From a virus (lineage: Duplodnaviria > Heunggongvirae > Uroviricota > Caudoviricetes), in IMG/VR virus record IMGVR_UViG_2534682060_000015, positions 1 through 28,894 of that record: a DNA stretch of 28,894 nucleotides. The stretch is one strand, 5' to 3'. Under the pieces are notes generated by a model. It did not search any database, was not told where the DNA came from, and saw nothing but the letters and a program-made list of their open reading frames with translations. How positions within the stretch are numbered: position 1 is the stretch's first letter; the number at the start of each line of letters is the position of its first letter. Below are positions 1,369 to 16,480 of this stretch, in pieces. Position numbers and translations under genes: made by a program.

Positions 1369-1444
1369 GCCGATATAGCTCAGTTGGTAGAGCAGCGCAT
1401 TCGTAATGCGAAGGTCGTAGGTTCGACTCCTATTATCGGCACCA
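1369..1444 (+). tRNA. thrW: tRNA-Thr (anticodon CGU)
   Basis: 76-nt sequence GCCGATATAGCTCAGTTGGTAGAGCAGCGCATTCGTAATGCG...GGTTCGACTCCTATTATCGGCACCA with acceptor stem pairing, D-loop AGCTCAGTTGGTAGAGC, anticodon loop with CGT, T-loop GGTTCGACTCC and 3' CCA; its position after proA matches thrW. Confidence 0.88.
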
Positions 1445-1445
1445 T
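1428..1445. repeat. attL core: 18-bp TCCTATTATCGGCACCAT at the 3' end of tRNA-Thr, repeated exactly at 15636..15653
   Basis: Exact 18-bp identity between 1428..1445 and 15636..15653 found by eye; the flanking bases differ (c/t upstream, t/c downstream). Classic duplication of a tRNA 3' end by site-specific integration. Confidence 0.75.
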
Positions 1446-1610: not shown

Positions 1611-2825
1611 GTGAAACTAAACGCCCGCCAGGTGGACACCGTCAAACCTAAAGATAAGCCTTACAAGCTGGCTGATGGTGGTGGTTTGTATCTCTTGATT
1701 AAACCTAATGGCGGCAAATACTGGCGGCTCAAGTATCGTGTAGCAGGCAAAGAGAAGCTGTTAGCGCTTGGCGTGTATCCTGAAGTCACATTGGCCGATG
1801 CTCGGGCAAAACGTGAAGAAGCCAAAAGGGGGATCGCTGGGGGTATCGATCCTATGGAAGCGAAACGGGAAGAAAAGATTGCCCGTGAAACTCAGTTAAA
1901 CAATACATTCAAAGATATTGCCCTTGAGTGGCACAGCAGCAAACTAAAAAAATGGTCTGCTGGGTATGCTTCAGACATCCTGGAGGCTTTCAACAAAGAT
2001 GTGTTCCCTTACATTGGCAAAAAACCAATAGCTGATATCAAACCGCTTGAACTGTTGAATGTGCTACGGCGCATTGAGGGGCGCGGCGCTACAGAAAAGG
2101 CCAAAAAGGTTAGGCAGCGCTGCGGGGAAGTTTTCCGTTACGCAATAGTCACCGGCCGTGCTGAGTATAACCCTGCTCCGGATCTCACCAGTGCGATGCA
2201 AGGGCATGACTCCAATCATTATCCTTTCCTCACACCAAAGGAATTGCCTGATTTCTTCAAGGCTTTGTCAGGATATACAGGAAGCGCGTTAGTAGTTTTA
2301 GCCGCTCGTCTGCTGATTATAACCGGCTTGCGTACCGGCGAACTCCGCGGGGCATTTTGGGATGAAATCAATATCAATAAGGCGGTCTGGGAAATACCAG
2401 CCTCACGCATGAAAATGCGTCGCCCTCATATAGTGCCATTGTCTGAGCAGGCTCTTTCGCTTATTGGGCAGATTAAAGAACTAACTGGCAATTATCCGCT
2501 TATGTTTCCTGGTCGTAATGATCCAAGAAAAACAATGAGTGAGGCCAGCATAAACCAAGTATTTAAGCGCATTGGTTATAACGGAAAGGTTACTGGCCAC
2601 GGTTTCCGACACACTATGAGCACCATTTTGCATGAGCAGGGCTATAACACTGCGTGGATAGAAACGCAGCTCGCGCACGTCGATAAAAACTCAATTCGTG
2701 GCACATACAACCATGCGCAATATCTGGATGGGCGGCGGGAAATGCTTCAGTGGTACGCTGATTATATGGATTCGCTCGAGCATGGCGGAAATGTGGTGCA
2801 TTGTGAGTTCGGAAAATGCGGGTGA
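1611..2825 (+). CDS. int: P4-type tyrosine integrase (404 aa)
   Basis: GTG start at 1611 with AGGAGG at 1596..1601; N-terminus MKLNARQVDTVKPKDKPYKLADGGGLYLLIKPNGGKYWRLKYR is typical of the P4-integrase arm-binding domain; C-terminal catalytic region contains HGFRHT...LAH...Y; located directly downstream of a tRNA. Confidence 0.9.
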   Translation: MKLNARQVDTVKPKDKPYKLADGGGLYLLIKPNGGKYWRLKYRVAGKEKLLALGVYPEVTLADARAKREEAKRGIAGGIDPMEAKREEKIARETQLNNTFKDIALEWHSSKLKKWSAGYASDILEAFNKDVFPYIGKKPIADIKPLELLNVLRRIEGRGATEKAKKVRQRCGEVFRYAIVTGRAEYNPAPDLTSAMQGHDSNHYPFLTPKELPDFFKALSGYTGSALVVLAARLLIITGLRTGELRGAFWDEININKAVWEIPASRMKMRRPHIVPLSEQALSLIGQIKELTGNYPLMFPGRNDPRKTMSEASINQVFKRIGYNGKVTGHGFRHTMSTILHEQGYNTAWIETQLAHVDKNSIRGTYNHAQYLDGRREMLQWYADYMDSLEHGGNVVHCEFGKCG

Positions 2826-3723: not shown

Positions 3724-3762
3724 AGCCTTACCCTAGTGGTATCTCATGTTTTGTTCGCGTCT

Positions 3763-3842
3763 CACCCTAAGGGTAATCAGACCTCACCCTTAGGGTATTT
3801 TTGTATGCTTTCCCATCAATTTTACTATTACCCTTAGGGTAA
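3763..3842. promoter_or_regulatory. three copies of the palindromic motif (C/T)ACCCT(A/T)AGGGTA (3763..3776, 3785..3797, 3829..3842) upstream of the AlpA-like gene
   Basis: CCCTAAGGG/CCCTTAGGG self-complementary cores repeated three times in the intergenic region 3724..3943; candidate operator or activator binding sites. Confidence 0.5.
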
Positions 3843-3943
3843 AAATATTCCCGATAACCATTAGACCTGAGAGCATTAAAATATTCGTTATTTCTGTGCC
3901 ATGATTACCTCGTCAAATTGAGTAGACGTTATGAGGTAAATAT

Positions 3944-4141
3944 ATGTCAAATACGCTTATTCGTTTAACGGAAGTTCAGCGTAGAACTGGATATAGCAAG
4001 GCATGGATTTATCGCCTTATGGGGCAAGGTAAATTTCCTGCATCAGTTAAAATTGGCTCGCGAGCGATTGCTTTCGTTGAGAGTGAAATTGACGAGTGGA
4101 TTAATCAGCGTATTGCGGAATCACGCGGAACAGCTACCTGA
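3944..4141 (+). CDS. AlpA-family HTH transcriptional regulator / excisionase-like protein (65 aa)
   Basis: MSNTLIRLTEVQRRTGYSKAWIYRLMGQGKFPASVKIGSRAIAFVESEIDEWI matches the AlpA/Vis-type pattern (RL.EV...G.S...IYRL...G.FP...K.G.R...W...EI..W); gagg upstream of the ATG. Confidence 0.8.
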   Translation: MSNTLIRLTEVQRRTGYSKAWIYRLMGQGKFPASVKIGSRAIAFVESEIDEWINQRIAESRGTAT

Positions 4142-4219
4142 TTAAATGGCTACGGGGCCAGAAGTCCCAGCTATCCACCAGCAAATAAAAAGTAACTTAA
4201 TTCGATAGCAGGAGTTTTT

Positions 4220-5020
4220 ATGAAACTGCGAAAAACGCCCGTACAGGGGCAGGGCTTCGTTCGGCCTGAAAACCAGAGCCAACAAAATTTCTGCGAAATT
4301 ATCCCGGTTAGTTCCGGCGTTATTGGCGGGCGTGAAACCAATATTGTTAGCGCCAGAGCGTTGCATAAGGTGCTGGGTGTGAAGCGTGATTTCACAACTT
4401 GGATTAAAGGACGCATTGATGAGTACGGATTTAAAAAGGGCGTGGATTTTGAATTCGTAGAAAATTTGACCTCCCCCAATCCGGTGAGCGCAAAATCTCG
4501 CCAACGTGTAGAGCACGACTACCTGAGCACTATCAACATGGCGAAAGAACTGGCGATGGTCGAGCGCACCGAACAGGGGCGCGCCGTTCGTCAGTACTTT
4601 ATCAAATGCGAGGAGGAGCTACACAAGGTAGCGCCAGTGCGTTCCGCAGTGTTACGCCGGGAACTGAAAGCCCGTATCACAGTTGCCAGCTACTTTAAGC
4701 CAATGTGTGCCGCGCTGGAGGCGTACCGGGCTGAGCTGGGTAAAAACACTCTACAGCACCACTACACCACGGAAGCCAATATGCTGGCGCGTATCGTGCT
4801 GGGTGGCATGACTGCAAAACAGTGGGCGCAGGCGAACGGCATCACAGGCGAACCACGCGACCACATGAGCACGTTGCAGCTTGAGCATCTTTCTTACCTT
4901 AAGCAGAGCAATATCACGCTGATTGAGTTAGGCCAGGACTACCACCAGCGGAAAGCTGAATTAATTCGTCTTTCGCAGCGTTGGTTAGCCCGTCGCATGG
5001 AGGAAAACAGCCATGTGTAA
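4220..5020 (+). CDS. phage antirepressor-like protein (AntA/AntB-type N-terminal domain)
   Basis: Segment SARALHKVLGVKRDFTTWIKGRIDEYGFKKGVDFEF resembles the AntA/AntB antirepressor N-terminal domain; ORF 266 aa. Confidence 0.55.
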   Translation: MKLRKTPVQGQGFVRPENQSQQNFCEIIPVSSGVIGGRETNIVSARALHKVLGVKRDFTTWIKGRIDEYGFKKGVDFEFVENLTSPNPVSAKSRQRVEHDYLSTINMAKELAMVERTEQGRAVRQYFIKCEEELHKVAPVRSAVLRRELKARITVASYFKPMCAALEAYRAELGKNTLQHHYTTEANMLARIVLGGMTAKQWAQANGITGEPRDHMSTLQLEHLSYLKQSNITLIELGQDYHQRKAELIRLSQRWLARRMEENSHV

Positions 5021-5440
5021 CGCTCTGACCGTTACAAAAAGAAAAAGCGCCCCGTTGCCGGAGCGCCTTTGTGAACAAGTCGCTTACTGCGCCATATTGC
5101 TTACTGTCTACGAGGCAGATTATAGCGTTGTGGTCGTACAGAGTGAAGGCGCTGATCACTGTTATCACAGTAAGCCAGAAATGCAGAATATTTTGCTGCA
5201 AAATGCCGTTAGCCACGCTGTCCGGAAAGCAAAAAATACTGCTGGTGGTGCGACTGATGCAATTTCTTCTGGTCGTTCAGTGCTGAATAATCTGACATTT
5301 GATGCCGTTCTGGAGAAAACTAAGGCGACCGCAAAGTGGCACCGGTGGGTATTACGACAAATCAAACTTGAACATATTGCCAACAGCGGTGTATTTGCGG
5401 TCGGTGGGAAAAGCGTAACCGGAAGAAAATTCCGGTGGGG

Positions 5441-5656
5441 CTATTCCTGCTCTTTAATATCGCTATGTCGCGATGTTTTCCAGGTATGTGGCCCTAATTT
5501 TGTGCGCCTGTACTCTTTAAGGAACGTCTCAAGGACAAACGCACACGGCGCGAATTTGTCTGATTCATGCTCGTGCGTCATATTTTTGCGACGTCTCTTT
5601 CGGGTTTGTGATGGTATTTTTGTTAACTTTTTATTGTTCATAATGGCCTCCTGCAT
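5441..5656 (-). CDS. small basic hypothetical protein (up to 71 aa; true start uncertain)
   Basis: Minus-strand ORF directly downstream of the RHH-like gene, same orientation; lysine/arginine-rich (KRRRK). Confidence 0.3.
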   Translation of the reverse strand: MQEAIMNNKKLTKIPSQTRKRRRKNMTHEHESDKFAPCAFVLETFLKEYRRTKLGPHTWKTSRHSDIKEQE

Positions 5657-5704
5657 AGCAATGCGCCGTAGTTCCTCACATCACGGCACTGATAGTGGTT
5701 ATTC

Positions 5705-5878
5705 CTACTCTTTGGCCTTGCGCAGCTGGCGGTATTCAACTTCTCGCTTTAATGCTGCTGTAACAAACTGCCCTGTACTTTCACCTGGCATTTTTACCGC
5801 CTCAACATTGTTCATTACTTCATGCGGAACTCTTGCCGCAACGGTTTGTGATTTCGCGTTTACTGCTTTTGTCGCCAT
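5705..5878 (-). CDS. small ribbon-helix-helix-like DNA-binding protein (57 aa), candidate switch regulator
   Basis: Hand-translated minus-strand ORF below the 60-aa track cutoff: MATKAVNAKSQTVAARVPHEVMNNVEAVKMPGESTGQFVTAALKREVEYRQLRKAKE; RVPHEV...G.S...FV..AL pattern fits an Arc/CopG-type fold; divergent from the + strand operon starting at 6078. Confidence 0.45.
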   Translation of the reverse strand: MATKAVNAKSQTVAARVPHEVMNNVEAVKMPGESTGQFVTAALKREVEYRQLRKAKE

Positions 5879-5928
5879 GTTGTGTACCCCTCATGAAAAA
5901 CAAATGCAGTATGCAGAAAAAAAAATAA

Positions 5929-5980
5929 GTGTTCAACACTTGACGTGTTTAACACCTGAAATTAGATTGGTGTTCAACAC
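5929..5980. promoter_or_regulatory. three near-palindromic operator-like sites GTGTT(C/T)AACAC (5929..5939, 5945..5955, 5970..5980) in a divergent intergenic region
   Basis: Three copies of an 11-bp near-palindrome between the minus-strand RHH-like gene (start 5878) and the + strand gene starting 6078. Confidence 0.55.
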
Positions 5981-6077
5981 CTTGTTGAAGCAAGGTGCAG
6001 AAACGACGAAACCCGGCAGTGCGTCAACACTAACCGGGCTTCTAACCACCAACGATAACGAGAGTATCGAGGTAGCT

Positions 6078-6614
6078 ATGAGAAATCATACCACACACCC
6101 GCAAGGGCGGGACTCGCACAACCTGAATAAACCCGATGTAAAAAACCTGTTGCTCGCCACTGCCAGCCAAGGCTATGATTTATACGCACCAGCAAAATCT
6201 GGTGCCGGGATTGGCGTCCTGGTATTTAACGAAGCGCACAACACGCGCCCTGCGTGTTTTTTTGTGCCGGATAGTCACACCTTATCAATGGTGGGCTGTA
6301 TGGGGGCGGAGCAATCCGCGCCGGGTTCTTCGTTAACCGGTTACGCCAACCCCGTACAGTCCACCGCCAGCGAAATTGGCGTTTCCTGCGGTGGGTTTAT
6401 TAACCCTAACGAAGAGGCTGCCAATATGGCTACAGTCCCTACCCTTGTACATTCCCAAACTGCCTTTATCTGGCGCTTTATCATCTTTGGCGCGTCAGAA
6501 TCCCAAATCATCCACGTCACCGCCTGGACGGAACGCGAAGCGCGTAACCATTGCCCGTCCGGTTGTGTCGCTGTATTCGCCGCCCGTATTCGTCAGGAGG
6601 TGCGCCATGATTAA
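6078..6614 (+). CDS. hypothetical protein (178 aa from ATG 6078; possibly shorter, from ATG 6426)
   Basis: C-terminal part of the 533-aa track ORF; ATG 6078 has GAGG at 6069..6072; only the region from about 6078 on reads like protein (...IWRFIIFGASESQIIHVTAWTEREARNH...). The upstream part of the track ORF looks like non-coding read-through. Confidence 0.4.
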   Translation: MRNHTTHPQGRDSHNLNKPDVKNLLLATASQGYDLYAPAKSGAGIGVLVFNEAHNTRPACFFVPDSHTLSMVGCMGAEQSAPGSSLTGYANPVQSTASEIGVSCGGFINPNEEAANMATVPTLVHSQTAFIWRFIIFGASESQIIHVTAWTEREARNHCPSGCVAVFAARIRQEVRHD

Positions 6615-6900
6615 TCTGTCAATCTCTGACCTTAACCGCATTCAGTATGACGAGAAATTTACCGGGAGCGTAAAAGCATTGAGGAAGCAGGCTGGATGTG
6701 CACGACTTATTAAGCCGTTAAGGTGTCATCATGATGATGATCCGCACTTTACCGGACGTATGGTGAATCACTACAAAAAAGGCGTTGAGGTATCCTCTGA
6801 ACAGCTACGAGCTGGTTGCTGTTTCGGCACACCACCGGAATTTAGCGAACTGCTGACCCGTTGCGATTACCGGATCATTCAGGGGGAAAGTCATGGGTAA
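6607..6900 (+). CDS. hypothetical protein (97 aa)
   Basis: ATG 6607 with AGGAGG at 6595..6600; overlaps the previous stop (ATGATTAA); MINLSISDLNRIQYDEKFTGSVKALRKQAG... Confidence 0.55.
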   Translation: MINLSISDLNRIQYDEKFTGSVKALRKQAGCARLIKPLRCHHDDDPHFTGRMVNHYKKGVEVSSEQLRAGCCFGTPPEFSELLTRCDYRIIQGESHG

Positions 6901-7093
6901 TCAGCCAGCAACAATGACAATTACCCTGAATGTGCCAGATGATTTCACCGGGCGCGTACTGGTTTACCTGGATAAAGGGAAAGTGAAATCACAATGCCGA
7001 CTGCGAAATAATGAAATAGTAAGTACGGTAGAAGGCTTTTCTGAACTCTGTATTCGTGCAGGAATAAAACCGGAACTGCTGACAGGAAAATAA
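6893..7093 (+). CDS. hypothetical protein (66 aa)
   Basis: ORF start overlaps the upstream stop; part of a tightly packed + strand operon. Confidence 0.45.
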   Translation: MGNQPATMTITLNVPDDFTGRVLVYLDKGKVKSQCRLRNNEIVSTVEGFSELCIRAGIKPELLTGK

Positions 7094-7097
7094 AACC

Positions 7098-7388
7098 ATG
7101 AAAAAGAAAAATTCTGGCTTTACTGCCAGCGGCCTCTCTCGGTCTGCAATTCGCTCTGGCGATATTTACCGCGACACCAGACGTGGGGGACGAGTGGTTA
7201 TTCGTCACGTTACGCCAGGAAATATCACCTACCGCCGTGAGGCTTACGAATATGACTGCGTAATGCCGCGCCGTCAGTTTGAGCGTGATTTTATTCTGGT
7301 GGAAAACAAAGAACAGGCAGTAGCGAGACGTGCAGCCTCGAGTATTAAAAAAATCCGGGCAATGTTGGTAGCTGGGGGTAAGAAGTGA
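7098..7388 (+). CDS. hypothetical protein (96 aa)
   Basis: ORF with stop overlapping the start of the large ATPase gene (7385). Confidence 0.5.
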   Translation: MKKKNSGFTASGLSRSAIRSGDIYRDTRRGGRVVIRHVTPGNITYRREAYEYDCVMPRRQFERDFILVENKEQAVARRAASSIKKIRAMLVAGGKK

Positions 7389-9517
7389 AAAACGCGCCGA
7401 ATTTAAAATATCAGCCGAAGGATAAATTCACTGAGGCAATCATTTTTGCCGGGATGGATGCTTACGCTCACGCTCAACACTGGATTGAAAGCGAAGGACG
7501 GAAATATGGCGATAGCGTGCCGCCTGTTTACCTGGGGCCAAAGCAACTGGCAGATCTGGCTAATATCCGCATTGTCGACGATGAACGTCGTTTTGCGCGC
7601 GTCTATCTCGCGGGGGAGATCGAACCAATCCAGATTAATGCTATCGCTGAAAGGCTGGCGCTGGCTGGCGTAAAGGATGCGAAATTATACAAAGGTATCC
7701 CTGACCAGGATCCGGAGAACTGGCGCGACTACCTGCAACGGATCCGTGAACAGGCAGAGCGCGGGGAAACCCTGACTGAAGGAATCGGAATAGCTGGTGG
7801 CTCACCCGGTAAAACAGGCCCCATGAAACCGCATATTACCGAAAAAGACGGGGCGCTCTGGTATATCGAGCCAATCCCCAACACCAGGGCAGAGGAGATG
7901 AATTATAAAGAAACCTGGCTGAGTGACCGGATGCGCACGGCAGGTATTGGTAATGACGGAAGGGAGGCGTATCTGATTATTGAAATGATCCCGGAAGGGA
8001 CACAAAAAATTATTTACGAAGCGATGCCGCGCAATGAAATCGGTATGCCCGCAGGATGGGCGCGATTACGTGGGCGGGGAGTTGCAATCACTACCAGCGC
8101 CCATTTATTGAACAAACTGGCGGAATACCTGCAACGTCATGGAGATCGCACGGTGTGGGAGGTCACATCAACAGCAGGTTGGCATTGTGGAGCCTATGTT
8201 ATGCCTGATGGCGAGGTGATTGGTGTGCCTGATCGTCCCGTAGCATTCTGCGGCGGATCTGCCGCCATCAAAGGCTATATTGTCAGGGGCACGGTGCATG
8301 AATGGCGAAATAATGTTGCTTCTCTGATGCGTGGCAATCACTCAATGATGCTTGGGGTGCTGGTCGGGCTGGCAGCCCCGCTAAATTCCCTTGTGGGGGG
8401 TAGTTGTTTTGGTATTCATCTTTTCGCGCAGTCGTCAGCGGGGAAAACCACGACTGTGGAGGCCGCCACCAGCCTTTATGGCGACCCTGAAATGCTTAAA
8501 CTCTCGTGGGATGCCACCCGGCACGGGTTGACAGTGGAAGCAGCTGCACGTAATGACGGTTTTATCCCTATTGATGAAATTGGTCAGGGAGGAAGGGTTA
8601 ATGACATTGCGCAATCCGCCTACAGCCTGTTTAACGGTGTGGGCAGGATTCAGGGGCGCAAGGACGGCGGCAATCGTGCGGTAATGCGCTGGAAAATAGC
8701 GGCACTAAGCACCGGAGAAGAAGATTTTGAAACCTTCCTGTTAAAAGGGGGAATTGCCCCAAAGGCAGGGCAACTGGTGCGACTGCTAAGCATTCCCTTT
8801 ACCGATACAACGGTGTTTAACGGTTATGACGATGGTGATCAACATGCCAGGGCCATAAAGCGACTTTCATCAAATTATTGTGGCGCTGCGGGACGTGAGT
8901 GGGTGCGCTGGTTATCCGCTCACAAGGAGTTGGCTATCAACACCACTTCAGATAAAGAAAATGCCTGGCTGGGAAATCTGCCTGAAAATGCCTCGTCACA
9001 GGTAAGGCGAGTGGCATCGCGATTCGCCATGCTGGATGCAGCCGGAGAGCTTGCTACCGCAATTACTGGCTGGACAGCTGAAGAATGCCGGGAAGCAACG
9101 CAACGGGCTTTTGATGACTGGCTACAGGATTTCGGGCTGGAAAACCGGGAAAAATATCAGGTCATCAGTCGCGCCCGTGACTTTATTCAGCGCCATGCCC
9201 TGAGTCGTTTTCAGCCTTATACCTACGGGAAAAGCAATGGGGATATGGATAACCACTATGCATCCCGTATAAGCAATCTTGCAGGCTATCTTGTCAGCGG
9301 TAAGCGTGAGGATGGAAAACCCGAATATCACATTATCCCGTCAGTGTTTGATAGCGAAATTTTATGCGGTATATCCAGGAACTTTGGGTGTCAGGCGCTG
9401 GAAGAAGCCGGAATGCTGGTTTGTGCAGAACCTGGTCGCTGGACATCGAAAACAGTGAAGATTAACGGAACACAGCAGCGATTTATCGTGCTGATTGATC
9501 AGGCAGAAGACGAATAG
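7385..9517 (+). CDS. large replication protein, P-loop NTPase (primase/helicase-like, 710 aa)
   Basis: Walker A AQSSAGKTT and Walker B IPIDEIG in the central region; size and position (after regulators, before an iteron field) match the replication proteins of P4-like/PICI-type satellites. Could belong to the DUF927-type family, but that is not verified. Confidence 0.6.
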   Translation: MKNAPNLKYQPKDKFTEAIIFAGMDAYAHAQHWIESEGRKYGDSVPPVYLGPKQLADLANIRIVDDERRFARVYLAGEIEPIQINAIAERLALAGVKDAKLYKGIPDQDPENWRDYLQRIREQAERGETLTEGIGIAGGSPGKTGPMKPHITEKDGALWYIEPIPNTRAEEMNYKETWLSDRMRTAGIGNDGREAYLIIEMIPEGTQKIIYEAMPRNEIGMPAGWARLRGRGVAITTSAHLLNKLAEYLQRHGDRTVWEVTSTAGWHCGAYVMPDGEVIGVPDRPVAFCGGSAAIKGYIVRGTVHEWRNNVASLMRGNHSMMLGVLVGLAAPLNSLVGGSCFGIHLFAQSSAGKTTTVEAATSLYGDPEMLKLSWDATRHGLTVEAAARNDGFIPIDEIGQGGRVNDIAQSAYSLFNGVGRIQGRKDGGNRAVMRWKIAALSTGEEDFETFLLKGGIAPKAGQLVRLLSIPFTDTTVFNGYDDGDQHARAIKRLSSNYCGAAGREWVRWLSAHKELAINTTSDKENAWLGNLPENASSQVRRVASRFAMLDAAGELATAITGWTAEECREATQRAFDDWLQDFGLENREKYQVISRARDFIQRHALSRFQPYTYGKSNGDMDNHYASRISNLAGYLVSGKREDGKPEYHIIPSVFDSEILCGISRNFGCQALEEAGMLVCAEPGRWTSKTVKINGTQQRFIVLIDQAEDE

Positions 9518-9549
9518 CACAACCTACGCTCGCAGAGGGTCAAAAATCG

Positions 9550-9822
9550 CGGGATATGCGGGATATCGGGATATGAAAAATATATTGCAGAAATATCAGT
9601 TATTTATGTGTTGTTGTCGTATCCCGCTGTATCCCGCCGTATCCCGGTATTTAGGTTTACGAGTGGTTGTAAAACAAACAAAATAACCGTATCCCGGAAT
9701 GTATCCCGCAATATCTTATTGATGCATAAGCAAAAAAAAACTTACCGGGATATGGCGGGATATGAAAAATCACATAACACCATGAAATAAATAAGTTTTT
9801 TTGTTCATATCCCGATATCCCG
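9550..9822. repeat. iteron field: at least 13 copies of GGGATAT / ATATCCC in both orientations, putative origin of replication
   Basis: Direct GGGATAT repeats at 9551..9575 and 9747..9763; inverted ATCCCG copies at 9621, 9631, 9641 (exact 10-bp spacing), 9691, 9703, 9809, 9817; the 13-mer GGGATATGAAAAA occurs twice; interspersed A/T runs. Confidence 0.6.
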
Positions 9823-9974
9823 GTAAAAAATGTTTTTTTACGCCTTATAGAGTACAGAAAAAAGATTGTTCAAATTTTGTATTACGATTGACTACTGTCA
9901 GCCATCCCACCCGGAAAAGGCATAAAAGCTGACAGGTAACTGACAATGAGACAGTTTTATTTTTACGTGCCGAT

Positions 9975-10532
9975 ATGACGGCAACAATGATGGGGCAGAG
10001 CATGACAAAACTGACCATTAACAGAAAACCGAAAGGTATTTACGGCACGCCGCAGAAAACGACGCAGGCGGCACAGAAGCAGGATAAAACCACATCGGCA
10101 CATAAAGTGATGCCCGGTAACCAGAAAGCGCAGCAGAAGCCCACAGGGGCGACACCGTGGCGGCATATGACCAAACGCCAGCGCAAAAACCGCAGGCGCG
10201 TTAACCGCCTCACTGAGTTGTGGCCTGACTTATTCTGCAGGGAAGCACCGAAGCCACTTAAGGTGGGGATATTCAATGACCTGGTGCAGGATATCGCCGT
10301 CAGGGAGCTGGCATTCGGTCCAGGGGCATTACGTGCGTCACTGGCATCTTATGCGCAGTCACCGCGCTATTACCGAGCCCTGGTTGCTGGTGGGGTGCGC
10401 TATGACCTGAAAGGCCAGCCGTGCGGCGAGGTGACACCACAGAAACAGAACGAGGCAGAAATGCGGCTGATGGCGCTGAATGAGAAGCGCAAACGTCAGC
10501 GCCGGGCAGCAAAGGAGAAAACAGGCGCATGA
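9975..10532 (+). CDS. ProQ/FinO-domain RNA-binding protein with basic N-terminal extension
   Basis: LTELWPDLFCREAPKPLKVGIFNDLVQDIAV...LRASLASYAQSPRYYRALVAGGVRYDLKGQPCGEVTPQ aligns by eye with the E. coli ProQ N-terminal domain (FLAERFPHCF...RPLKIGIFQDLV...[35 protein letters not shown]). Start codon uncertain (ATGs at 9975, 9987, 10002). Confidence 0.7.
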   Translation: MTATMMGQSMTKLTINRKPKGIYGTPQKTTQAAQKQDKTTSAHKVMPGNQKAQQKPTGATPWRHMTKRQRKNRRRVNRLTELWPDLFCREAPKPLKVGIFNDLVQDIAVRELAFGPGALRASLASYAQSPRYYRALVAGGVRYDLKGQPCGEVTPQKQNEAEMRLMALNEKRKRQRRAAKEKTGA

Positions 10533-10816
10533 TTCACGACAGCAAAGCGGAAGCACTGGAAGCGCGTGGTCTGGACCGGAGAGCGGCGGAAAGATGGGCA
10601 GAAGTCATAATGCGAGTGGATGGTGATAAGGCTCGGGAGGAGGCGGCAAAACGTCGCGCGGAATGTATCCGCAAGGCAGCCCGCCCACCAGCAAAGCTGG
10701 ATAATTTCGAAGAGATGCGCGAAACCATCAGCCAGGCACATGCTGGTATGGGATTACATCAGCCCAATGGTAAGGCATTCAGGAAATACCCCGGGGCAAA
10801 AAATTACAATCCATGA
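10529..10816 (+). CDS. hypothetical protein (95 aa), start overlapping the FinO-like stop
   Basis: ATGA overlap at 10529..10532; charged, Ala/Arg-rich; no family recognised. Confidence 0.4.
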   Translation: MIHDSKAEALEARGLDRRAAERWAEVIMRVDGDKAREEAAKRRAECIRKAARPPAKLDNFEEMRETISQAHAGMGLHQPNGKAFRKYPGAKNYNP

Positions 10817-10820
10817 GAGA

Positions 10821-10846
10821 GGCCGGGATTTTACCCGGCTTTTTTG
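10821..10846 (+). terminator. rho-independent terminator
   Basis: GCCGGG (10822..10827), loop ATTTTA, CCCGGC (10834..10839), followed by TTTTTTGT. Confidence 0.7.
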
Positions 10847-11017
10847 TGTCAGCAAAAAAGCCCACAGACAGCAGTGTTGCGGGGGGTGTTTTCAGGTGGT
10901 TGAAGTCATTGGGAAGAACGTGAACATTACGCGCAAATGTTTCACAAATTGCAATAAAATGGATTGTTATTTCAGTTTATGCAATCATGAGCATTGCTTT
11001 GATCAGGAGAGATGATT

Positions 11018-11185
11018 ATGAGAAAAGCCAGCGTAAAACCCGTTTTACTCGCTCGTGAGCAGATTGAAGCATTACAGCGCATCCAGGACGAAGAGCGTCA
11101 AAAATCTGTGCTTGGTGTGGCCCCGTCGATTCATGTTATTGCCAGGCAACTGATGGACAAGGCACTTAAAGAGGTGAAACTGTGA
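11018..11185 (+). CDS. small hypothetical protein (55 aa)
   Basis: Hand-found ORF MRKASVKPVLLAREQIEALQRIQDEERQKSVLGVAPSIHVIARQLMDKALKEVKL with AGGAGA at 11005..11010; stop overlaps the GTG start of the next ORF. Confidence 0.45.
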   Translation: MRKASVKPVLLAREQIEALQRIQDEERQKSVLGVAPSIHVIARQLMDKALKEVKL

Positions 11186-11454
11186 AATTAAATATCAGAG
11201 TGGATAAACGCCAGCTATGGCAGAAAAAAGAGAACAGTGAGGCATTCAGGGATTTGCTGGTGGAAAATCTTCAGCACCGTTTCAGTGGAGAGCTGCCAGA
11301 CGCGCTGGGGAAAAAACTGGAATCTCTGACGGTGGAAATTGGCGATTATGGTTTTGTTGATGTTGAAAGCACGACTGCCAACACAGAAATCGTAAAACAG
11401 GTCGTCAACGATGTAATGAAAACCACGCTTAGCCAGCCATCCTGGCGTAACTGA
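11182..11454 (+). CDS. hypothetical protein (90 aa)
   Basis: Track ORF, translationally coupled to the upstream small ORF. Confidence 0.45.
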   Translation: MKLNIRVDKRQLWQKKENSEAFRDLLVENLQHRFSGELPDALGKKLESLTVEIGDYGFVDVESTTANTEIVKQVVNDVMKTTLSQPSWRN

Positions 11455-11553
11455 ATCCGCAAGGGGCGGTGATTGCCCCTCTCCGCCATACCCACAACGA
11501 ATTCCTTTTTCGCATGAAGTGAATGTTTATCGTATATGCATGAGGTGAGCCAC

Positions 11554-12078
11554 ATGTTGATGAGTAAAGCCGAATACGCCAAATACAAAGGTGTAAGCCG
11601 CCAGACAGTTTACGACTGGATCGAGAAAGGCGAGGTGGTCATGTCGGGTAAAAAAATTGATATGGAGGCTACAGAGTGGCGAAACAGCCCATCATCACAG
11701 GGAAAAGACACTGTTTCTGAAATGTGGCCTGAGAGAACGCTGGAAATGACGTGGGGCGAGTTCTGGAAAGCTGTCAGGGACAGAGACGGTAAAATTCCTG
11801 CGCCAGTAACGGACGATGACATAAAGCAGCGTGTGCAGGATGCAGCCGGGGAATTAGGCTGGGAAGCACACTTTCTTGATGATGGTGCTATCTGCCTTGA
11901 GGATGATGAAGGACAGCATTACTTTGAACAATACAATTTGCGGGGTAATGCCAGGCTGGCAATTCGTATGCTGCGCTGTGAACTCTGCTATGTTGCAGGT
12001 GATTATCCTGATGAACTTGAATCATGGAGCGAGGCAGGACTAAACGCCCTGGCTGAATGGGAGAAAACAGGTCATTAA
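11554..12078 (+). CDS. HTH DNA-binding protein, Nu1/TerS-like N-terminus (candidate packaging-redirection or site-recognition protein)
   Basis: SKAEYAKYKGVSRQTVYDWIEKGEVV resembles the winged-HTH N-terminus of lambda-type small terminase Nu1 (from memory); ATG 11554 with GAGGTGA at 11542..11548; track ORF begins at 11536. Confidence 0.45.
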   Translation: MLMSKAEYAKYKGVSRQTVYDWIEKGEVVMSGKKIDMEATEWRNSPSSQGKDTVSEMWPERTLEMTWGEFWKAVRDRDGKIPAPVTDDDIKQRVQDAAGELGWEAHFLDDGAICLEDDEGQHYFEQYNLRGNARLAIRMLRCELCYVAGDYPDELESWSEAGLNALAEWEKTGH

Positions 12079-12086
12079 CGGCCGCA

Positions 12087-12414
12087 AAAAGTGTCAAGTT
12101 GAGCAGCTTGCAAGGTTGACACTTTACACTCTGAACACGAAAAAGTGTCAACCTCGCTGTAAGCCCCGCCATTACTGGTCTTGCGCCATGTTTGCCACAT
12201 CAAAAGGCCGAAAAAATCGCGAAAAGTGTCAAGTTGCCATGCTTAGAAATGCTAAGTTTTGTTAAGGTTTTTCGCGGAAAAGTGTCAACTCAACCTAACG
12301 GATCTTAACGCTCACGCACAACAGCTGCAGCCAACGTGTAAAGGACTGATGCGAAGCAGGGCAGCTGTCAGCCTGTTATGGTTTGTTATGCCTTACCTGG
12401 GGAAAGTGTCAACC
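12087..12414. repeat. array of six copies of (C)GC(G)AAAAGTGTCAA(G/C) immediately downstream of the HTH gene
   Basis: Copies at 12087..12098 (+), 12116..12124 (inverted), 12141..12153, 12222..12233, 12277..12289 and 12402..12414; the extended 16-mer is conserved in three copies. Confidence 0.6.
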
Positions 12415-12621
12415 GCTACCGTTTCAGAAAGCTTCAATTGCAGAGCGTTGGCAGCACCTGTCAAAACTTGTCACCCGCCGGCACAGCCAGCGGGAATTTT
12501 TTGCTCTAAACGCTCTAAGTTACAGTTGATGTGATCTGTAAACTGCGGTTGCAACTAGTAATCGTATAAAACCATCAGTTGCAGTTTTACCTAACTATAA
12601 TCACAATGATAGTTTATATAA

Positions 12622-14121
12622 TTATACATTGTATGCGAGGTAATCATATAATGCTAAAAGTTTCCGATAATCAGTATGAGATTTGTCCTTAAACTCCCGG
12701 ACATGTTTTTCTAAATCTTCTAAGGGTATATGTTCATCATGAGCATTGAAGAAAATAATATTTTGTAATTTGCTATAACTATCAGAATGTTTAGCGTAAA
12801 TATCTTCAATGGTATGTTCTACTATTCTTTGATTCTTGGGTAACCTTGAATAGTTTAGATTTATTAATCTTTTTTGATTTTTCATTAATGATGTTAAGCA
12901 TTTAACACCTGGGCTGAATTTATGAAAAGCATAAGCTGGGAAATATGATCTTTTATTGATGGTGAACTTGTCAAGCAACTCGACAACATGTGATTCCTTA
13001 TTTGAAATTAGATCAAAATAGTTTTCCATCATCTCCTGAGGTGTTTGCATGTATATTTTTATAGAGTTAACAGAACCGACGGCTAGAACAAGCTCATCAT
13101 TTCTGAGTGTCTCCAAATCCCCAACAAGTTTTACTTTTATGTCTCCACCTTCCTTTATTTTACCAAAGATACTCTCTACTCTGCGTATATCCATTACCGA
13201 AACTGGTAAGTGGAGTTGAGCAAGTTCTTTATATATATCTGAGAAGTTATCTGTAACGATTTTATTAATGCTAATTAACCCTGCATCTTCTACTTCGAGA
13301 TCGTGAGAGACAATGTTTAAATTATCAATACCTTCTTCTCTTTCAATAAGAAGGAAGTTGTTTTTTATTTTTTCTGCAATTTTAGAACGAGGTGGTATGT
13401 ATGAGAATATTGTTTTTAATACTTTTTTTATATTCGGATCACCTATTCTATATCCCATAAATATAATCGGATTATGTATAAACAAGGATAGGAGTTGAGC
13501 ACGAATTAATTCATATTTTTTATCAAAATGAATATAGTCATCACTGGTTATTATTATGGATTCTGGTTTGCTAACGCATCCGTGAATTTTATAAACAGAA
13601 CCATAAGGATTGCTTAAAAGTATATCATTTCCAATAACAGGATTATAACCAATTGCACTTTCGATAAAATTATCATAGTTTGTCGTAATCACAGAGGCAA
13701 TGTTTTTTGAGGCCTTTACTAATTCAGATATTTCATCTTGAACTCCTAATTTTAAATCTGTGATATTAACCACCTGTGAAAGATAGATTTTAAATCTGCT
13801 GATATTTGAGGATATATCTTCCGACTCGTAGTATAAGTCATTGATATATTTGAACTTTCCATTCCTGTCTGCTTTTAGTGTTGCATCAAAAATTTGCTCT
13901 AATTGCGTTGCTACTTTTGGAAGGTCTACAATACCATCTTTATTGCTGTTTTCTCTGACAAGATCTTTATAGAGTTCATTAGAATTTGTCAGGTCAATAC
14001 TAATTTTCTCTAAGAGTGCCGGCCAGCTATAAGAAATTGATAAGTATCTCATGCTGAAACCTGCTCCAACAAATAATATTGGGTGGTTTCTGTAGCCTTT
14101 TAGAAAATCCGTTATATTCAT
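12622..14121 (-). CDS. SIR2-domain protein (499 aa): N-terminal SIR2-like NAD+ hydrolase domain plus unassigned ~300-aa C-terminal domain; candidate defence effector
   Basis: Rossmann motif PILFVGAGFS (aa 14-23), TTNYDNF (aa 146-152) and YKIHG (aa 178-181), the residue pattern of defence-associated SIR2 domains (ThsA/DSR-type Asn and His); GGAGG four nt upstream of the ATG (rc of 14122..14130); strongly AT-rich. Confidence 0.7.
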   Translation of the reverse strand: MNITDFLKGYRNHPILFVGAGFSMRYLSISYSWPALLEKISIDLTNSNELYKDLVRENSNKDGIVDLPKVATQLEQIFDATLKADRNGKFKYINDLYYESEDISSNISRFKIYLSQVVNITDLKLGVQDEISELVKASKNIASVITTNYDNFIESAIGYNPVIGNDILLSNPYGSVYKIHGCVSKPESIIITSDDYIHFDKKYELIRAQLLSLFIHNPIIFMGYRIGDPNIKKVLKTIFSYIPPRSKIAEKIKNNFLLIEREEGIDNLNIVSHDLEVEDAGLISINKIVTDNFSDIYKELAQLHLPVSVMDIRRVESIFGKIKEGGDIKVKLVGDLETLRNDELVLAVGSVNSIKIYMQTPQEMMENYFDLISNKESHVVELLDKFTINKRSYFPAYAFHKFSPGVKCLTSLMKNQKRLINLNYSRLPKNQRIVEHTIEDIYAKHSDSYSKLQNIIFFNAHDEHIPLEDLEKHVREFKDKSHTDYRKLLALYDYLAYNV

Positions 14122-14212
14122 TTGACCTCCGAGATATATTAGCGGTAATCATTAAAATTTGTAAGAACACAGCTCAAGTATGTATTTAGCTGTAGAGATA
14201 AGAATTTACTTG

Positions 14213-15340
14213 TTATTGACCATTTGGATAGTAAATTTTCATAAGCCTCTCTTTTTCTTTGTTGAATTCTTTATCAAAATCAAATTTTTTGTCTAAATTA
14301 GAATGTAAGTCATTTAACGCTTTAACAAGAACCCAAGCGCTGTGGTGGATGAATGGGTTTAATCCAATAATGTTTCCTGCAGAATTATCGTCAACTTTCT
14401 CAACTGCTAAAATCGCTTGGATTTTTTTACAGCTTTCCTGAATATTCCAATCTGAAACATGTAGTAATAATGCAGATAAAGCCATGAGTGGGTTGTTTGC
14501 TTTAATAGATGTAGGGGTGTAACTAATAATCATACGGAGTCGAGGGTGGTAGTCTCGAATCAGTCTCGCCATTCGAGTAGCTATCTCATATTTTTCGTTG
14601 AGAATTGATCTGTCAAATGTTGACGTCCCAGAGTCTTTAATTAATATAGTTCTTGCTTTTTTGACTACTGATTTAAGTCTTACATTCCAAAGCTCAGGAT
14701 TCTCATGACGGTCTAGATAGAATTGAGGATGCTTGAAATAAAGAGATTGATATACTTCCTCGTTGATATCGAACCAACTTTTGTTTATGGCGCTGAGATC
14801 GACAACATAATTATCATTGTTTCTCTTATATCTAATCAATGAGGCCTTTGCAAGGTAGATTATGTGAGGGCTTAAATTAAATGTAAAAGTGCCTTTTTCT
14901 CTTAAATCTAAGAACCATTGGCGCATGTTACGTATATCTTCTTGCGTAAAAATCTTCTCCTGAATTCCCGCACAGACCATAAGACCTATTAAGCGTGTCG
15001 CTTCAGAACCCGAGCGCATAAAATCAATTTGGCCTTCATTTGAAACAACGTTCAACTTATCATCGCCAGTATAAAAATCACAAAATGGGAGGTGAGAGTC
15101 TTTACCTAGATTGTCTCGAAATGCAAAGTGTGCTTGCTTTACAACTTTGCCGTTACTGAGAGATCTTCCTTCCGAAACGTAATAACCACCAGAAACATTG
15201 CATGCCGGGCATTCAACATCCTCTTTAACAAAATCTCTAAAACTTAGAGAAGGATCTGAGTTGCTACGTTCGAAAAGGTTTTCCAACTGCTTAGCATCCA
15301 GCTCACGCTTAAATTTTCTAGAATAGGCCGTTATCGTCAT
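14213..15340 (-). CDS. hypothetical protein (375 aa from ATG 15340; track ORF extends to TTG 15406), upstream partner of the SIR2 gene
   Basis: ATG at 15340 has AAGGAG 6 nt upstream (rc of 15347..15352); no Walker A, TIR or other motif recognised by eye; contains CPAC and PFCDFY cysteine motifs; ~90-bp gap to the SIR2 gene, same strand. Confidence 0.6.
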   Translation of the reverse strand: MTITAYSRKFKRELDAKQLENLFERSNSDPSLSFRDFVKEDVECPACNVSGGYYVSEGRSLSNGKVVKQAHFAFRDNLGKDSHLPFCDFYTGDDKLNVVSNEGQIDFMRSGSEATRLIGLMVCAGIQEKIFTQEDIRNMRQWFLDLREKGTFTFNLSPHIIYLAKASLIRYKRNNDNYVVDLSAINKSWFDINEEVYQSLYFKHPQFYLDRHENPELWNVRLKSVVKKARTILIKDSGTSTFDRSILNEKYEIATRMARLIRDYHPRLRMIISYTPTSIKANNPLMALSALLLHVSDWNIQESCKKIQAILAVEKVDDNSAGNIIGLNPFIHHSAWVLVKALNDLHSNLDKKFDFDKEFNKEKERLMKIYYPNGQ

Positions 15341-15365
15341 TTCGGTCTCCTTTCGAAGGGAGCTT

Positions 15366-15393
15366 AACTTTATCATAGGATGATCATAAAGGG
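15366..15393 (-). promoter_or_regulatory. imperfect palindrome CTTTATCATAGGATGATCATAAAG just upstream of the cassette RBS
   Basis: Arms CTTTATCA / TCATAAAG with one mismatch; holds two TATGAT hexamers on the minus strand; 14 nt upstream of the AAGGAG RBS. Confidence 0.35.
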
Positions 15394-15635
15394 AGCTGTA
15401 CGGCAAACATCACTAAGGTTGGGCCTGAAACACAAATTCCCTAAGTGCAATTTTGACGTCTAACTTACTTGATGTGCTTCAAGGCGGTTCTTACATTGTG
15501 GTATCAACAACAATAGAATGTTTTTTAAACAATTTAGATAGCAACAAGCAAGTCTGGGGGTACTTTTGGGGGTATCTAATGATTGCGTAATAGTTTTTTT
15601 ATATACATATCAATGTGTTGATTTCTACAATTTGT

Positions 15636-15653
15636 TCCTATTATCGGCACCAT
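15636..15653. repeat. attR core: second copy of TCCTATTATCGGCACCAT
   Basis: Exact 18-bp copy of tRNA-Thr 3' end (1428..1445); the 21-bp motif GGGGGTACTT(A/T)TGGGGGTAT lies inside the island near both cores (1560..1580 and 15556..15576). Confidence 0.75.
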
Positions 15654-16261: not shown

Positions 16262-16414
16262 ATGAAAAACATTGCAGCTATCAAACGTAATAACCGCAAG
16301 ATTCACGCTCGTAAGTTCCTGTCTACGCCAGAAGGAAAAGCCTGGCTAGAGCGTAAACAGAGAGAGAACGAAGAAAGAAAACTCCTTAGTGAGTTGAAAT
16401 GGCTTAAGGATTGA
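16262..16414 (+). CDS. small basic hypothetical protein (50 aa)
   Basis: Hand-found ORF MKNIAAIKRNNRKIHARKFLSTPEGKAWLERKQRENEERKLLSELKWLKD with AGAGG 6 nt upstream; followed by a long hairpin. Confidence 0.35.
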   Translation: MKNIAAIKRNNRKIHARKFLSTPEGKAWLERKQRENEERKLLSELKWLKD

Positions 16415-16428
16415 ATCACCAGTAGGCG

Positions 16429-16476: not shown

Positions 16477-16480
16477 ATTA

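What the first reader, a model, noticed from the sequence alone, without database searches (positions are those of the whole stretch)
9518..9974. Dense GGGATAT iteron field immediately downstream of the replication ATPase gene
At least 13 copies of GGGATAT/ATATCCC occur in both orientations, including three inverted copies at exact 10-bp (one helical turn) spacing and a duplicated 13-mer GGGATATGAAAAA, with flanking A/T tracts. This is the architecture of an iteron-type origin bound by the adjacent initiator/helicase, as in P4 ori and PICI ori sites.
Basis: partly seen in the sequence, partly recalled or inferred. Interest (0 to 1): 0.5.

Follow-up and report, generated by a model that had tools for sequence, protein, structure and literature searches.

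The report
Replication origin of a chromosomal island
The repeat field is very probably the replication origin of a 14-kb phage-satellite-type island in E. coli, built like the known origins of such islands, so it is a clean but ordinary example of a known kind.

Summary
The repeats are real, but the count and the word need correcting. There are 12 copies, not 13 or more, of an invariant 7-mer, CGGGATA. Position 8 is T in 7 copies and C in 5. The copies form five clusters at 9550-9822, starting 32 bp after the stop codon of a 710-aa DUF927 protein. Two pairs of opposed clusters each flank a 45-bp spacer that is 73-78% A+T.

The protein is a predicted structural homologue of the SaPIbov1 Rep initiator-helicase and of SCCmec Cch, and it ends in a winged helix. 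The same layout follows its relatives in 73 of the loci examined from other genomes. The repeated word differs between protein clades; I found at least 10 words. Where it could be localised, the word tracks one short segment, the wing of the C-terminal winged helix. In one E. coli allele all 12 copies read GTGGATA at the same positions.

The island has int, alpA, rep and ori, 18-bp att repeats at tRNA-Thr, and spans about 14.2 kb. Its gene order matches EcCICFT073, whose rep-ori has been shown experimentally to drive replication.

Verdict: this is a PICI/SaPI-type origin, a new member of a known kind. Its function is inferred, not demonstrated. The P4 analogy holds for position (P4's crr), not for family membership.

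The parts
7385..9517 (+). rep: 710-aa DUF927 initiator-helicase. Walker A is at aa 350-357 and Walker B (DE) at aa 397-398.
   Evidence: Pfam DUF927, E 2e-40. phmmer against the PDB hits SaPIbov1 Rep 8tch and SCCmec Cch 5dgk at E 2e-6. Foldseek of the AlphaFold model gives 5dgk at E 1e-20 and 8tch at E 1e-17.
9209..9496 (+). Part of rep that encodes the C-terminal winged helix (aa 609-704). The wing is aa 675-704 (nt 9407-9496) and is the predicted iteron-reading element.
9550..9574 (+). Iteron cluster A: three CGGGATAT copies starting at 9550, 9559 and 9567, pointing towards spacer 1.
9575..9619 (.). Spacer 1: 45 bp, 73% A+T. Candidate DNA-unwinding element.
   Evidence: The equivalent spacer in 73 related loci has a median length of 47 bp and a median A+T of 82%.
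9620..9646 (-). Iteron cluster B: three copies (TATCCCG on the + strand) at 9620, 9630 and 9640, with exact 10-bp spacing.
   Evidence: Strain ZF8-1 has five copies here, an insertion of 20 bp or two units.
9690..9708 (-). Iteron cluster C: two copies at 9690 and 9702.
9746..9762 (+). Iteron cluster D: two copies at 9746 and 9756.
9763..9807 (.). Spacer 2: 45 bp, 78% A+T. Second candidate unwinding element.
9808..9822 (-). Iteron cluster E: two copies at 9808 and 9816.
   Evidence: The 14-mer TATCCCGATATCCC is also present once in phage P4, next to crr.
7098..7388 (+). DUF4222 gene that overlaps the start of rep. The same gene precedes the Pri-Rep gene of EcCICFT073.
   Evidence: Pfam hit. 51% identity to the CFT073 homologue.
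3944..4141 (+). alpA-family regulator of the island.
   Evidence: Pfam Phage_AlpA, E 2e-19
1611..2825 (+). Tyrosine integrase of the island.
   Evidence: Pfam Phage_integrase and Arm-DNA-bind_3
1428..1445 (+). attL core, TCCTATTATCGGCACCAT, at the 3' end of tRNA-Thr(CGT) (1369-1444).
15636..15653 (+). attR core, an identical 18-mer. It sets the island length at about 14.2 kb.

Best explanation
The field at 9550-9822 is the vegetative replication origin of a roughly 14.2-kb PICI-type island integrated at tRNA-Thr. It is recognised by the protein encoded immediately upstream.

Proposed mechanism (inferred):
1. After induction, the DUF927 Rep protein is made.
2. The winged helix at its C-terminus reads the 7-8-bp word CGGGATAY, mainly through the beta-hairpin wing.
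3. Opposed clusters place Rep on both sides of a 45-bp AT-rich spacer: A against B around spacer 1, and D against E around spacer 2.
4. Rep assembles there as a self-loading ring helicase, probably as two hexamers as proposed for SaPI Rep, and melts the spacer.
5. It then unwinds outward, and host enzymes do the priming and synthesis. No primase domain or gene was recognised in the island.

What is shown here: the anatomy, the purifying selection on the word, the co-variation of word and protein, and the predicted fold homology to SaPIbov1 Rep.

What is inferred: binding, melting, hexamer geometry and autonomous replication.
For: Anatomy.
- There are 12 exact CGGGATA copies in five clusters, beginning 32 bp after the rep stop codon.
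- Two opposed cluster pairs each flank a 45-bp spacer of 73% or 78% A+T.

Selection on the word.
- In two diverged E. coli alleles the core positions changed at 1/84 and 0/84, against 33/207 and 32/207 outside the cores (Fisher 9e-5 and 1e-5).
- Copy number changes by whole 10-bp units.

Concerted switch.
- E. coli 2013C-3033 has a Rep about 72% identical. The 12 copies keep their positions and orientations.
- All of them read GTGGATA. That is exactly 2 changes per copy. The other five positions changed at 0/60, against 93/207 outside (p 1e-13).

Generality.
- In 73 loci from other genera, the first copy lies 19-49 bp after the stop codon, the first orientation flip spans a median 47-bp spacer of 82% A+T, and within-cluster spacing is 8-11 bp.
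- 53 of the 73 have at least 8 copies of one 6-mer, against 0.3% of 316 control windows.
- At least 10 different words occur, each paired with its own wing sequence.
- The TGAACCAACA and GAGACAACA classes are interleaved in every protein segment except the wing (within-class 85%, between-class 67%).
- The field accompanies the rep gene whether or not DUF4222, ProQ or PerC are nearby.

Protein.
- Sequence and predicted fold match SaPIbov1 Rep and Cch, including the C-terminal winged helix.
- Published SaPI Reps bind 6-12 iterons placed directly downstream of rep, in opposed sets around an AT-rich centre, through a C-terminal winged helix (PMC9371898; PMC7581432).

Context.
- The island has the gene order of EcCICFT073. 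The rep-ori of EcCICFT073 sustained a conditional plasmid (PMC6092414).
- Rep shares its first 130 aa with the CFT073 Pri-Rep at 47% identity.
- Two closed circular 'plasmid' records of 10.5 and 16 kb are in fact int+alpA+DUF927 islands with the same kind of field. DUF927 is their only recognisable replication gene.
Against: - Nothing here is experimental. No DUF927-type rep-ori of a Gram-negative island was found tested in the papers I read.
- No primase domain or gene was recognised in the island. The N-terminal 130 aa have no Pfam hit and no profile similarity to the Toprim N-termini of longer homologues.
- The island lacks the capsid module of the classical E. coli PICIs (compared), so its status as a mobilisable satellite is not established.
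- The nested dyad symmetry also gives a very stable single-strand fold (z -8.3). That is a trivial consequence of inverted copies, but a DNA structure cannot be excluded.
- The field lies upstream of the ProQ/PerC genes, so the same sites could also regulate them.
Confidence: 0.85

Rival explanations
1. The repeats are an operator array. They would control transcription of the downstream ProQ/FinO-PerC genes, or terminate and insulate the rep operon. They would be bound by Rep or by another island regulator, without any origin function.
For: The field fills the intergenic region upstream of the ProQ/FinO gene at 9975-10532 and PerC at 10529-10816. Initiators often autoregulate through their own sites (general knowledge).
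Against: The same kind of field follows rep in loci that lack ProQ and PerC altogether, for example the Xenorhabdus loci. The conserved design of opposed clusters around a 45-47-bp spacer of about 80% A+T is that of an unwinding element, not of a promoter. The promoter scan found no + strand candidate. A regulatory role in addition to origin function is not excluded.
Confidence: 0.06
2. The field is a P4-type crr. It would be one of two cis sites and insufficient alone, with the true origin elsewhere in the island.
For: P4 crr lies immediately 3' of the alpha gene and consists of 8-bp type-1 repeats in both orientations. P4 even carries the 14-mer of cluster E next to crr.
Against: The island has no second cluster of the word. 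Only isolated copies occur at 3443, 4300 and 9334. The protein has no similarity to P4 alpha and belongs to the SaPIbov1 Rep/Cch fold. The one-site EcCICFT073 rep-ori fragment is sufficient for replication.
Confidence: 0.03
3. The field acts through nucleic-acid structure, as a cruciform, as single-strand hairpins, or as a non-coding RNA, rather than as protein-binding sites.
For: Nested inverted repeats are present: 9559-9580 with 9801-9822, and 9630-9649 with 9743-9762. Single-stranded DNA fold: -55 kcal/mol, z -8.3.
Against: All 12 copies keep the same word, including copies in the same orientation that cannot pair with each other. Copy number is asymmetric between arms in ZF8-1, with 5 copies against 2. 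Many relatives have only a 2+3 arrangement. No Rfam family approaches its threshold; only eukaryotic miRNA-hairpin models score, at 17-26 bits against thresholds of 62-117.
Confidence: 0.03
4. The field is a packaging site (pac or cos), or a partition or centromere-like site, of the island.
For: Short repeated sites in clusters also occur at centromere-like and pac sites (general knowledge).
Against: No partition ATPase or terminase gene is nearby. The 180-aa HTH protein at 11536-12078 is not related to the PICI TerS of IHE3034. The word co-varies with the wing of the Rep protein.
Confidence: 0.02

Closest known systems
SaPI (Staphylococcus aureus pathogenicity island) Rep-ori modules, especially SaPIbov1 Rep (PDB 8tch)
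   Different: The host is Gram-negative. The word is 7-8 bp (CGGGATAY) rather than 5-6 bp. There are five clusters with two AT-rich spacers instead of one centre. No primase gene or domain is adjacent. An extra N-terminal domain of about 130 aa has unknown function. Sequence identity is only about 13-14%.
EcCICFT073 pri-rep-ori (Gram-negative PICI; Fillol-Salom et al. 2018, PMC6092414)
   Same: The island gene order is the same: int, alpA, Icd-like, small ORFs, DUF4222, rep, ori, PerC. The origin lies in the intergenic region directly after rep, with short words in both orientations (GTCTACC/GGTAGAC). The first 130 aa of the two Rep proteins are 47% identical.
   Different: The helicase body belongs to another family ('DNA primase family protein', with no similarity beyond residue 130). 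The word is different. EcCICFT073 carries capsid genes where this island carries a SIR2 defence gene. Its origin has been tested; this one has not.
Phage P4 alpha protein with ori and crr
   Same: It is a satellite of E. coli. Octamer repeats in both orientations lie immediately 3' of the initiator-helicase gene, in crr. From my own knowledge, not tested here: the initiator binds them through a C-terminal winged helix.
   Different: P4 needs two sites 4.5 kb apart, whereas this island has one cluster. Alpha is unrelated in sequence and is a primase plus helicase of another class (from my own knowledge).
Iteron plasmids (RepA/pi/TrfA class: pPS10, R6K, RK2, F)
   Same: Repeated initiator-binding sites lie next to an AT-rich unwinding element, and the initiator reads DNA with winged helices (PMC4980987 is listed; the details are from my own knowledge).
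   Different: Those iterons are 17-22 bp, directly repeated and helically phased. Their Rep proteins are not helicases and depend on DnaA, DnaB and DnaC. DnaA boxes are part of those origins, and none is present here.
SV40 large T antigen and papillomavirus E1 origins
   Same: An initiator that is itself the replicative helicase binds short words arranged as inverted repeats next to AT-rich DNA and assembles as a double hexamer. The analogy is drawn in PMC7581432.
   Different: The DNA-binding domain is N-terminal in those proteins, and the protein families and hosts are unrelated.

Membership tests
PICI/SaPI-type Rep-ori module | The origin lies immediately 3' of the rep gene. | tested here: met
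   The first copy starts 32 bp after the stop codon at 9517. The distance is 19-49 bp in 73 related loci.
PICI/SaPI-type Rep-ori module | Six to twelve short iterons. | tested here: met
   12 exact copies of CGGGATA, which is 7-8 bp and slightly longer than the 5-6 bp of SaPIs.
PICI/SaPI-type Rep-ori module | At least two iterons on each side of an AT-rich region, pointing in opposite directions. | tested here: met
   A(+++)/B(---) flank a 45-bp spacer of 73% A+T. D(++)/E(--) flank a 45-bp spacer of 78% A+T.
PICI/SaPI-type Rep-ori module | Rep is an initiator-helicase with a C-terminal winged-helix domain. | tested here: met
PICI/SaPI-type Rep-ori module | The iteron word is specific to the cognate Rep allele. 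| tested here: met
   This rests on co-variation only. All 12 copies are switched in 2013C-3033. At least 10 word/wing pairs were found. Only the wing segment separates the two classes compared.
PICI/SaPI-type Rep-ori module | Rep binds the iterons, and rep-ori drives autonomous replication. | not testable with these tools
   This needs EMSA or footprinting and a conditional-vector assay. The only indirect support is the two closed circular records of related islands.
Gram-negative PICI (island level) | int, alpA and rep transcribed in one direction, a size of about 8-15 kb, and a specific att site. | tested here: met
   int is at 1611-2825, alpA at 3944-4141 and rep at 7385-9517, all on the + strand. 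The 18-bp att repeats are at 1428 and 15636, giving about 14.2 kb at tRNA-Thr.
Gram-negative PICI (island level) | Capsid-morphogenesis or packaging-redirection genes, and helper-phage induction. | tested here: not met
   No capsid, head-decoration or terminase homologue lies inside 1428-15653. Induction cannot be tested. The island is therefore 'PICI-like'. This does not affect the origin call.
Phage P4 alpha/ori/crr system | An alpha-type initiator. | tested here: not met
   BLASTP against P4 alpha gives E 0.13. Pfam finds only DUF927.
Phage P4 alpha/ori/crr system | Two cis sites (ori and crr) that share the same octamer. | tested here: not met
   There is a single cluster. Outside it the island has only isolated copies at 3443, 4300 and 9334. 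Compare the P4 annotation.
Iteron plasmids (Rep_3/RepA class) | Direct iterons of 17-22 bp with helical phasing, a non-helicase Rep, and DnaA boxes. | tested here: not met
   The word is 7-8 bp and occurs in both orientations with 8-12-bp spacing. The protein is helicase-like. There is no TTWTNCACA match in 9500-9990.

The most novel reading that the evidence does not exclude
The DUF927 Rep family of Enterobacterales satellites may carry a compact, readable specificity code. A stretch of about 10-30 residues in the wing of the C-terminal winged helix would set which 7-10-bp word is used. The family has diversified into at least 10 orthogonal word/wing pairs, and whole arrays are rewritten in concert (CGGGATA to GTGGATA in all 12 copies at 72% protein identity). 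On this reading the pairs are replication-specificity (incompatibility) groups. They would let several satellites coexist in one cell without cross-firing, and they could be re-engineered by wing swaps.
Probability: 0.45. Interest if true: 0.45.

Novelty: new member of a known kind. Interest (0 to 1): 0.3.

Why it matters
The result annotates the replication module of an island that RefSeq labels only 'DUF927 domain-containing protein' followed by an unannotated gap. The island is present in 26-28 of 5426 complete E. coli genomes, including strain 55989 and the O104:H4 outbreak lineage. It carries a SIR2 defence gene and a PerC-family regulator.

Knowing the origin and its specificity determinant makes three things directly testable: island induction, copy-number amplification, and compatibility with co-resident satellites. 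The comparative set of about 80 loci, at least 10 words and a wing-localised switch is a ready-made design table for origin-specificity swap experiments. The feature itself would not surprise a specialist in phage satellites.

Tried and rejected
- **Rfam.** A permissive scan of 9300-10200 gave only eukaryotic miRNA-hairpin models far below threshold. I found no RNA family.
- **Promoters and terminators.** The scan found no + strand promoter and no terminator in the field.
- **Host-factor sites.** 9500-9990 has no DnaA box (TTWTNCACA), no GATC and no strict IHF site. One relaxed IHF-like match lies at 9594.
- **ORFs in the field.** The ORFs 9495-9686 and 9608-9790 are not annotated in any RefSeq genome. 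The 20-bp indel in ZF8-1 would shift their frame. I rejected them as genes.
- **N-terminal domain as an inactivated Toprim.** MAFFT placed it opposite the Toprim of longer homologues. hhalign found no similarity (probability 0.5%) and Pfam found nothing, so I make no such claim.
- **TerS.** The 180-aa HTH protein at 11536-12078 is not related to the PICI TerS of IHE3034.
- **P4 alpha homology.** None was found.
- **Literature.** A search for a PICI at thrW in E. coli returned no papers. The iteron words of Fig. 2a of PMC6092414 are not in the held text or supplements. I could not check whether CGGGATAY has already been drawn there.
- **ED1a PICI.** The record is not in the collection.

Full report
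**Where the window comes from.** It is E. coli chromosome. proA ends at 1254 and tRNA-Thr(CGT) lies at 1369-1444. An 18-bp direct repeat, TCCTATTATCGGCACCAT, sits at the 3' end of the tRNA (1428-1445) and again at 15636-15653. It delimits an island of about 14.2 kb. On the + strand the island encodes:
- a tyrosine integrase at 1611-2825;
- an AlpA-family regulator at 3944-4141;
- AntA- and Ash-like proteins, and a DUF4222 protein at 7098-7388;
- a 710-aa DUF927 protein at 7385-9517;
- the 457-bp gap under study;
- a ProQ/FinO-domain protein and a PerC-family regulator.

On the - strand it encodes a SIR2 protein that matches PADLOC PDC-S25/ThsA. The same locus occurs in 26-28 of 5426 complete E. 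coli genomes, including 55989 and O104:H4. RefSeq annotates nothing in the gap.

**Checking the observation.** The repeat field is real, but the word and the count need correcting. GGGATAT/ATATCCC occurs exactly 7 times in the gap. The invariant unit is CGGGATA, with 12 exact copies between 9550 and 9822 and no one-mismatch copies. Position 8 is T in 7 copies and C in 5, and position 9 is G in 8 of 12. Shuffles of the window give 2.05 +/- 1.56 copies against 15 observed. Only 3 copies lie outside the 273-bp field (Poisson P about 6e-28).

The copies form five clusters:

| Cluster | Start positions | Strand |
|---|---|---|
| A | 9550, 9559, 9567 | + |
| B | 9620, 9630, 9640 (exact 10-bp steps) | - |
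| C | 9690, 9702 | - |
| D | 9746, 9756 | + |
| E | 9808, 9816 | - |

The A-B and D-E gaps are both exactly 45 bp and are 73% and 78% A+T. The 15-mer CGGGATATGAAAAAT is duplicated, and the clusters form nested dyads.

**Selection on the word.** I aligned the gap with three other E. coli alleles (counted).
- In ZF8-1 and in the STEC383 remnant, the 84 core positions changed at 1 and 0 sites. The 207 non-core positions of the field changed at 33 and 32 sites (Fisher 9e-5 and 1e-5).
- ZF8-1 has five copies instead of three in cluster B, an insertion of exactly two 10-bp units.
- In strain 2013C-3033 the DUF927 protein is about 72% identical. All 12 copies sit at the same positions and in the same orientations, but each reads GTGGATA. 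That is 24 changes, exactly two per copy. The other five core positions changed at 0/60 while the surrounding DNA changed at 93/207 (p 1e-13).

An array rewritten in concert, with its layout kept, is what one expects of sites read by one protein whose specificity has shifted.

**Generality.** A scan of one genome per species returned 80 loci that encode relatives of the protein.
- In 73 of them, one 6-mer occurs at least 5 times in the 450 bp after the stop codon. In 53 it occurs at least 8 times. The corresponding figures for 316 control windows from the same loci are 10% and 0.3%.
- The design is constant. The first copy lies 19-49 bp after the stop (median 26). Then come 2-3 copies, a spacer of median 47 bp (IQR 45-49) and 82% A+T, and 3-5 copies in the opposite orientation. 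Within-cluster spacing is 8-11 bp. A second module is often present but is absent in many loci.
- The word is not constant. I found CGGGATA, GTGGATA, (C/T)GGGATAA, TGGGATAAGT, TGAACCAACA, GAGACAACA, TGAGACAAC, TGGGACAAC, ACGGGTTAT, GTGGGTTAT and CGTGGTTC.
- The field follows the rep gene whether or not DUF4222, ProQ or PerC are nearby.

**Which part of the protein reads the word.** Relatives with a Zn-ribbon/Toprim N-terminus in place of the window's N-terminal domain still use GGGATA-type words. The EcCICFT073 Pri-Rep shares the window's N-terminal 130 aa at 47% identity but uses GTCTACC. The N-terminus is therefore not the determinant.

The TGAACCAACA and GAGACAACA classes are interleaved in every segment of the protein: between-class identity equals within-class identity, and reaches 100% in one segment. 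The exception is residues 675-704, where within-class identity is 85% and between-class identity 67%. The difference is concentrated in QRKSPRI(D/N)G against QGRVREDG. Each word class listed above has its own sequence in this segment.

**What the protein is.**
- phmmer against the PDB finds SaPIbov1 Rep (8tch) and SCCmec Cch (5dgk) at E 2e-6.
- An AlphaFold model built from 56 sequences (pLDDT 78) matches 5dgk at E 1e-20 and 8tch at E 1e-17.
- Residues 675-704 form the beta-hairpin wing of that domain.
- Walker A (S350 S351 G353 K354 T355 T356) and Walker B (D397 E398) are invariant.

**Comparison with what is known.** Published work describes SaPI Reps as self-loading initiator-helicases. A C-terminal winged helix recognises 6-12 short iterons placed immediately downstream of rep. 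An AT-rich region lies near the centre, with at least two iterons on each side pointing in opposite directions (PMC9371898; PMC7581432). PMC7581432 also states that DUF927-containing Cch is related to SaPIbov1 Rep.

Fillol-Salom et al. (PMC6092414) showed that Gram-negative PICIs have the same origin organisation directly 3' of pri-rep. They showed that the EcCICFT073 rep-ori fragment maintains a conditional plasmid, and that E. coli PICIs carry four Pri-Rep alleles. EcCICFT073 has the gene order of the present island, and its intergenic origin shows GTCTACC/GGTAGAC words in clusters of both orientations. Other listed PICIs use yet other rep families. The field therefore meets every sequence-level criterion of a PICI/SaPI-type origin. 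The biochemical criteria cannot be tested here.

**P4.** In P4 the element directly 3' of the alpha gene is crr (4291-4590), with 8-bp type-1 repeats in both orientations. The ori lies 4.5 kb away. The island has no second cluster, and alpha is unrelated in sequence. The window field thus resembles P4 crr in position but is not a member of that system.

**Indirect support for episomal life.** Two closed circular records filed as plasmids are in fact int+alpA+DUF927 islands. They are K. aerogenes pYD-K10_2 (10.5 kb) and K. pneumoniae FDAARGOS_1323 unnamed2 (16 kb). Both have the same kind of field after rep, with words GGGATAA and TGAACCAACA, and no other replication gene.

**Rivals.**
- An operator array for the downstream genes is unlikely as the sole role, because the field is independent of those genes and is built around an AT-rich spacer.
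- A structural DNA or RNA element is not favoured. Same-orientation copies keep the same word, arm copy numbers are unequal, and Rfam finds nothing. The strong single-strand fold (z -8.3) follows from the inverted copies.
- Packaging or partition roles have no supporting genes.

**Verdict.** This is very probably the replication origin of a PICI-like island, read by the wing of the C-terminal winged helix of the adjacent DUF927 Rep (confidence 0.85). It is a new member of a known kind. The most interesting by-product is the comparative evidence that a short wing segment encodes origin specificity and that whole iteron arrays are rewritten in concert.

**Open points.** There is no experimental test. 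No primase was recognised. The N-terminal domain is unexplained. The island has no capsid or packaging genes, so its mobilisation route is unknown.

Noticed in passing
L088 (phage P4, NC_001609) 4591-4604; window 9808-9821: P4 carries TATCCCGATATCCC, wedged between the alpha terminator and crr. This 14-mer is identical to iteron cluster E of the window. It is the only such pair in P4, and P4 alpha is unrelated to the window protein. It may be a relic of recombination between satellite replication modules.
   Followed up: partly
window 7385-7774 (aa 1-130 of the DUF927 protein); L002 5242-5630: An alpha/beta N-terminal domain of about 130 aa is shared at 47% identity with the EcCICFT073 Pri-Rep, whose helicase body is unrelated. 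In other homologues a Zn-ribbon/Toprim primase takes its place. It has no Pfam hit and no profile similarity to Toprim. Its function is unknown. It may be a docking module, perhaps for the DUF4222 protein encoded just upstream in both islands.
   Followed up: partly
window 12622-15406, - strand: This is the accessory module of the island. A 499-aa SIR2 protein matches PADLOC PDC-S25 (E 2e-139) and ThsA-like models. Next to it is a 397-aa protein with no family. It is a likely anti-phage defence cargo and sits where classical E. coli PICIs carry capsid genes.
   Followed up: partly
window 15654-28894: A second mobile element lies in tandem right after attR. It has an HTH_36 protein (20181-20849), a major capsid protein E homologue (23541-24569), a Dit-like tail protein (26859-27536) and a tyrosine integrase on the - strand (27617-28894). 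The corresponding stretch of strain BCE049 holds different, CPS-53-like genes.
   Followed up: no
L085 3303-3787 (E. coli 2013C-3033): The variant word of this allele, read as (T/A/G)TATCCACC, comes close to the DnaA box TTATCCACA (the consensus is from my own knowledge). I did not examine whether host DnaA is recruited there.
   Followed up: no
L083 (E. coli STEC383) about 2990-3480: This is a decayed island at the abgR-smrA site. It keeps the complete 12-copy field with 0/84 core changes, and the ProQ/PerC genes, but it has lost the rep gene and most of the integrase.
   Followed up: partly
window 9975-10532: A ProQ/FinO-domain RNA-binding protein is encoded directly after the origin, here and in 13 of 86 sequences compared. 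No partner RNA was found in the gap.
   Followed up: partly
L092 (NZ_CP142848.1) and L093 (NZ_CP069874.1): Two records deposited as non-mobilizable plasmids are circular forms of int+alpA+DUF927 satellites. One of them has a full capsid, portal and terminase set.
   Followed up: partly
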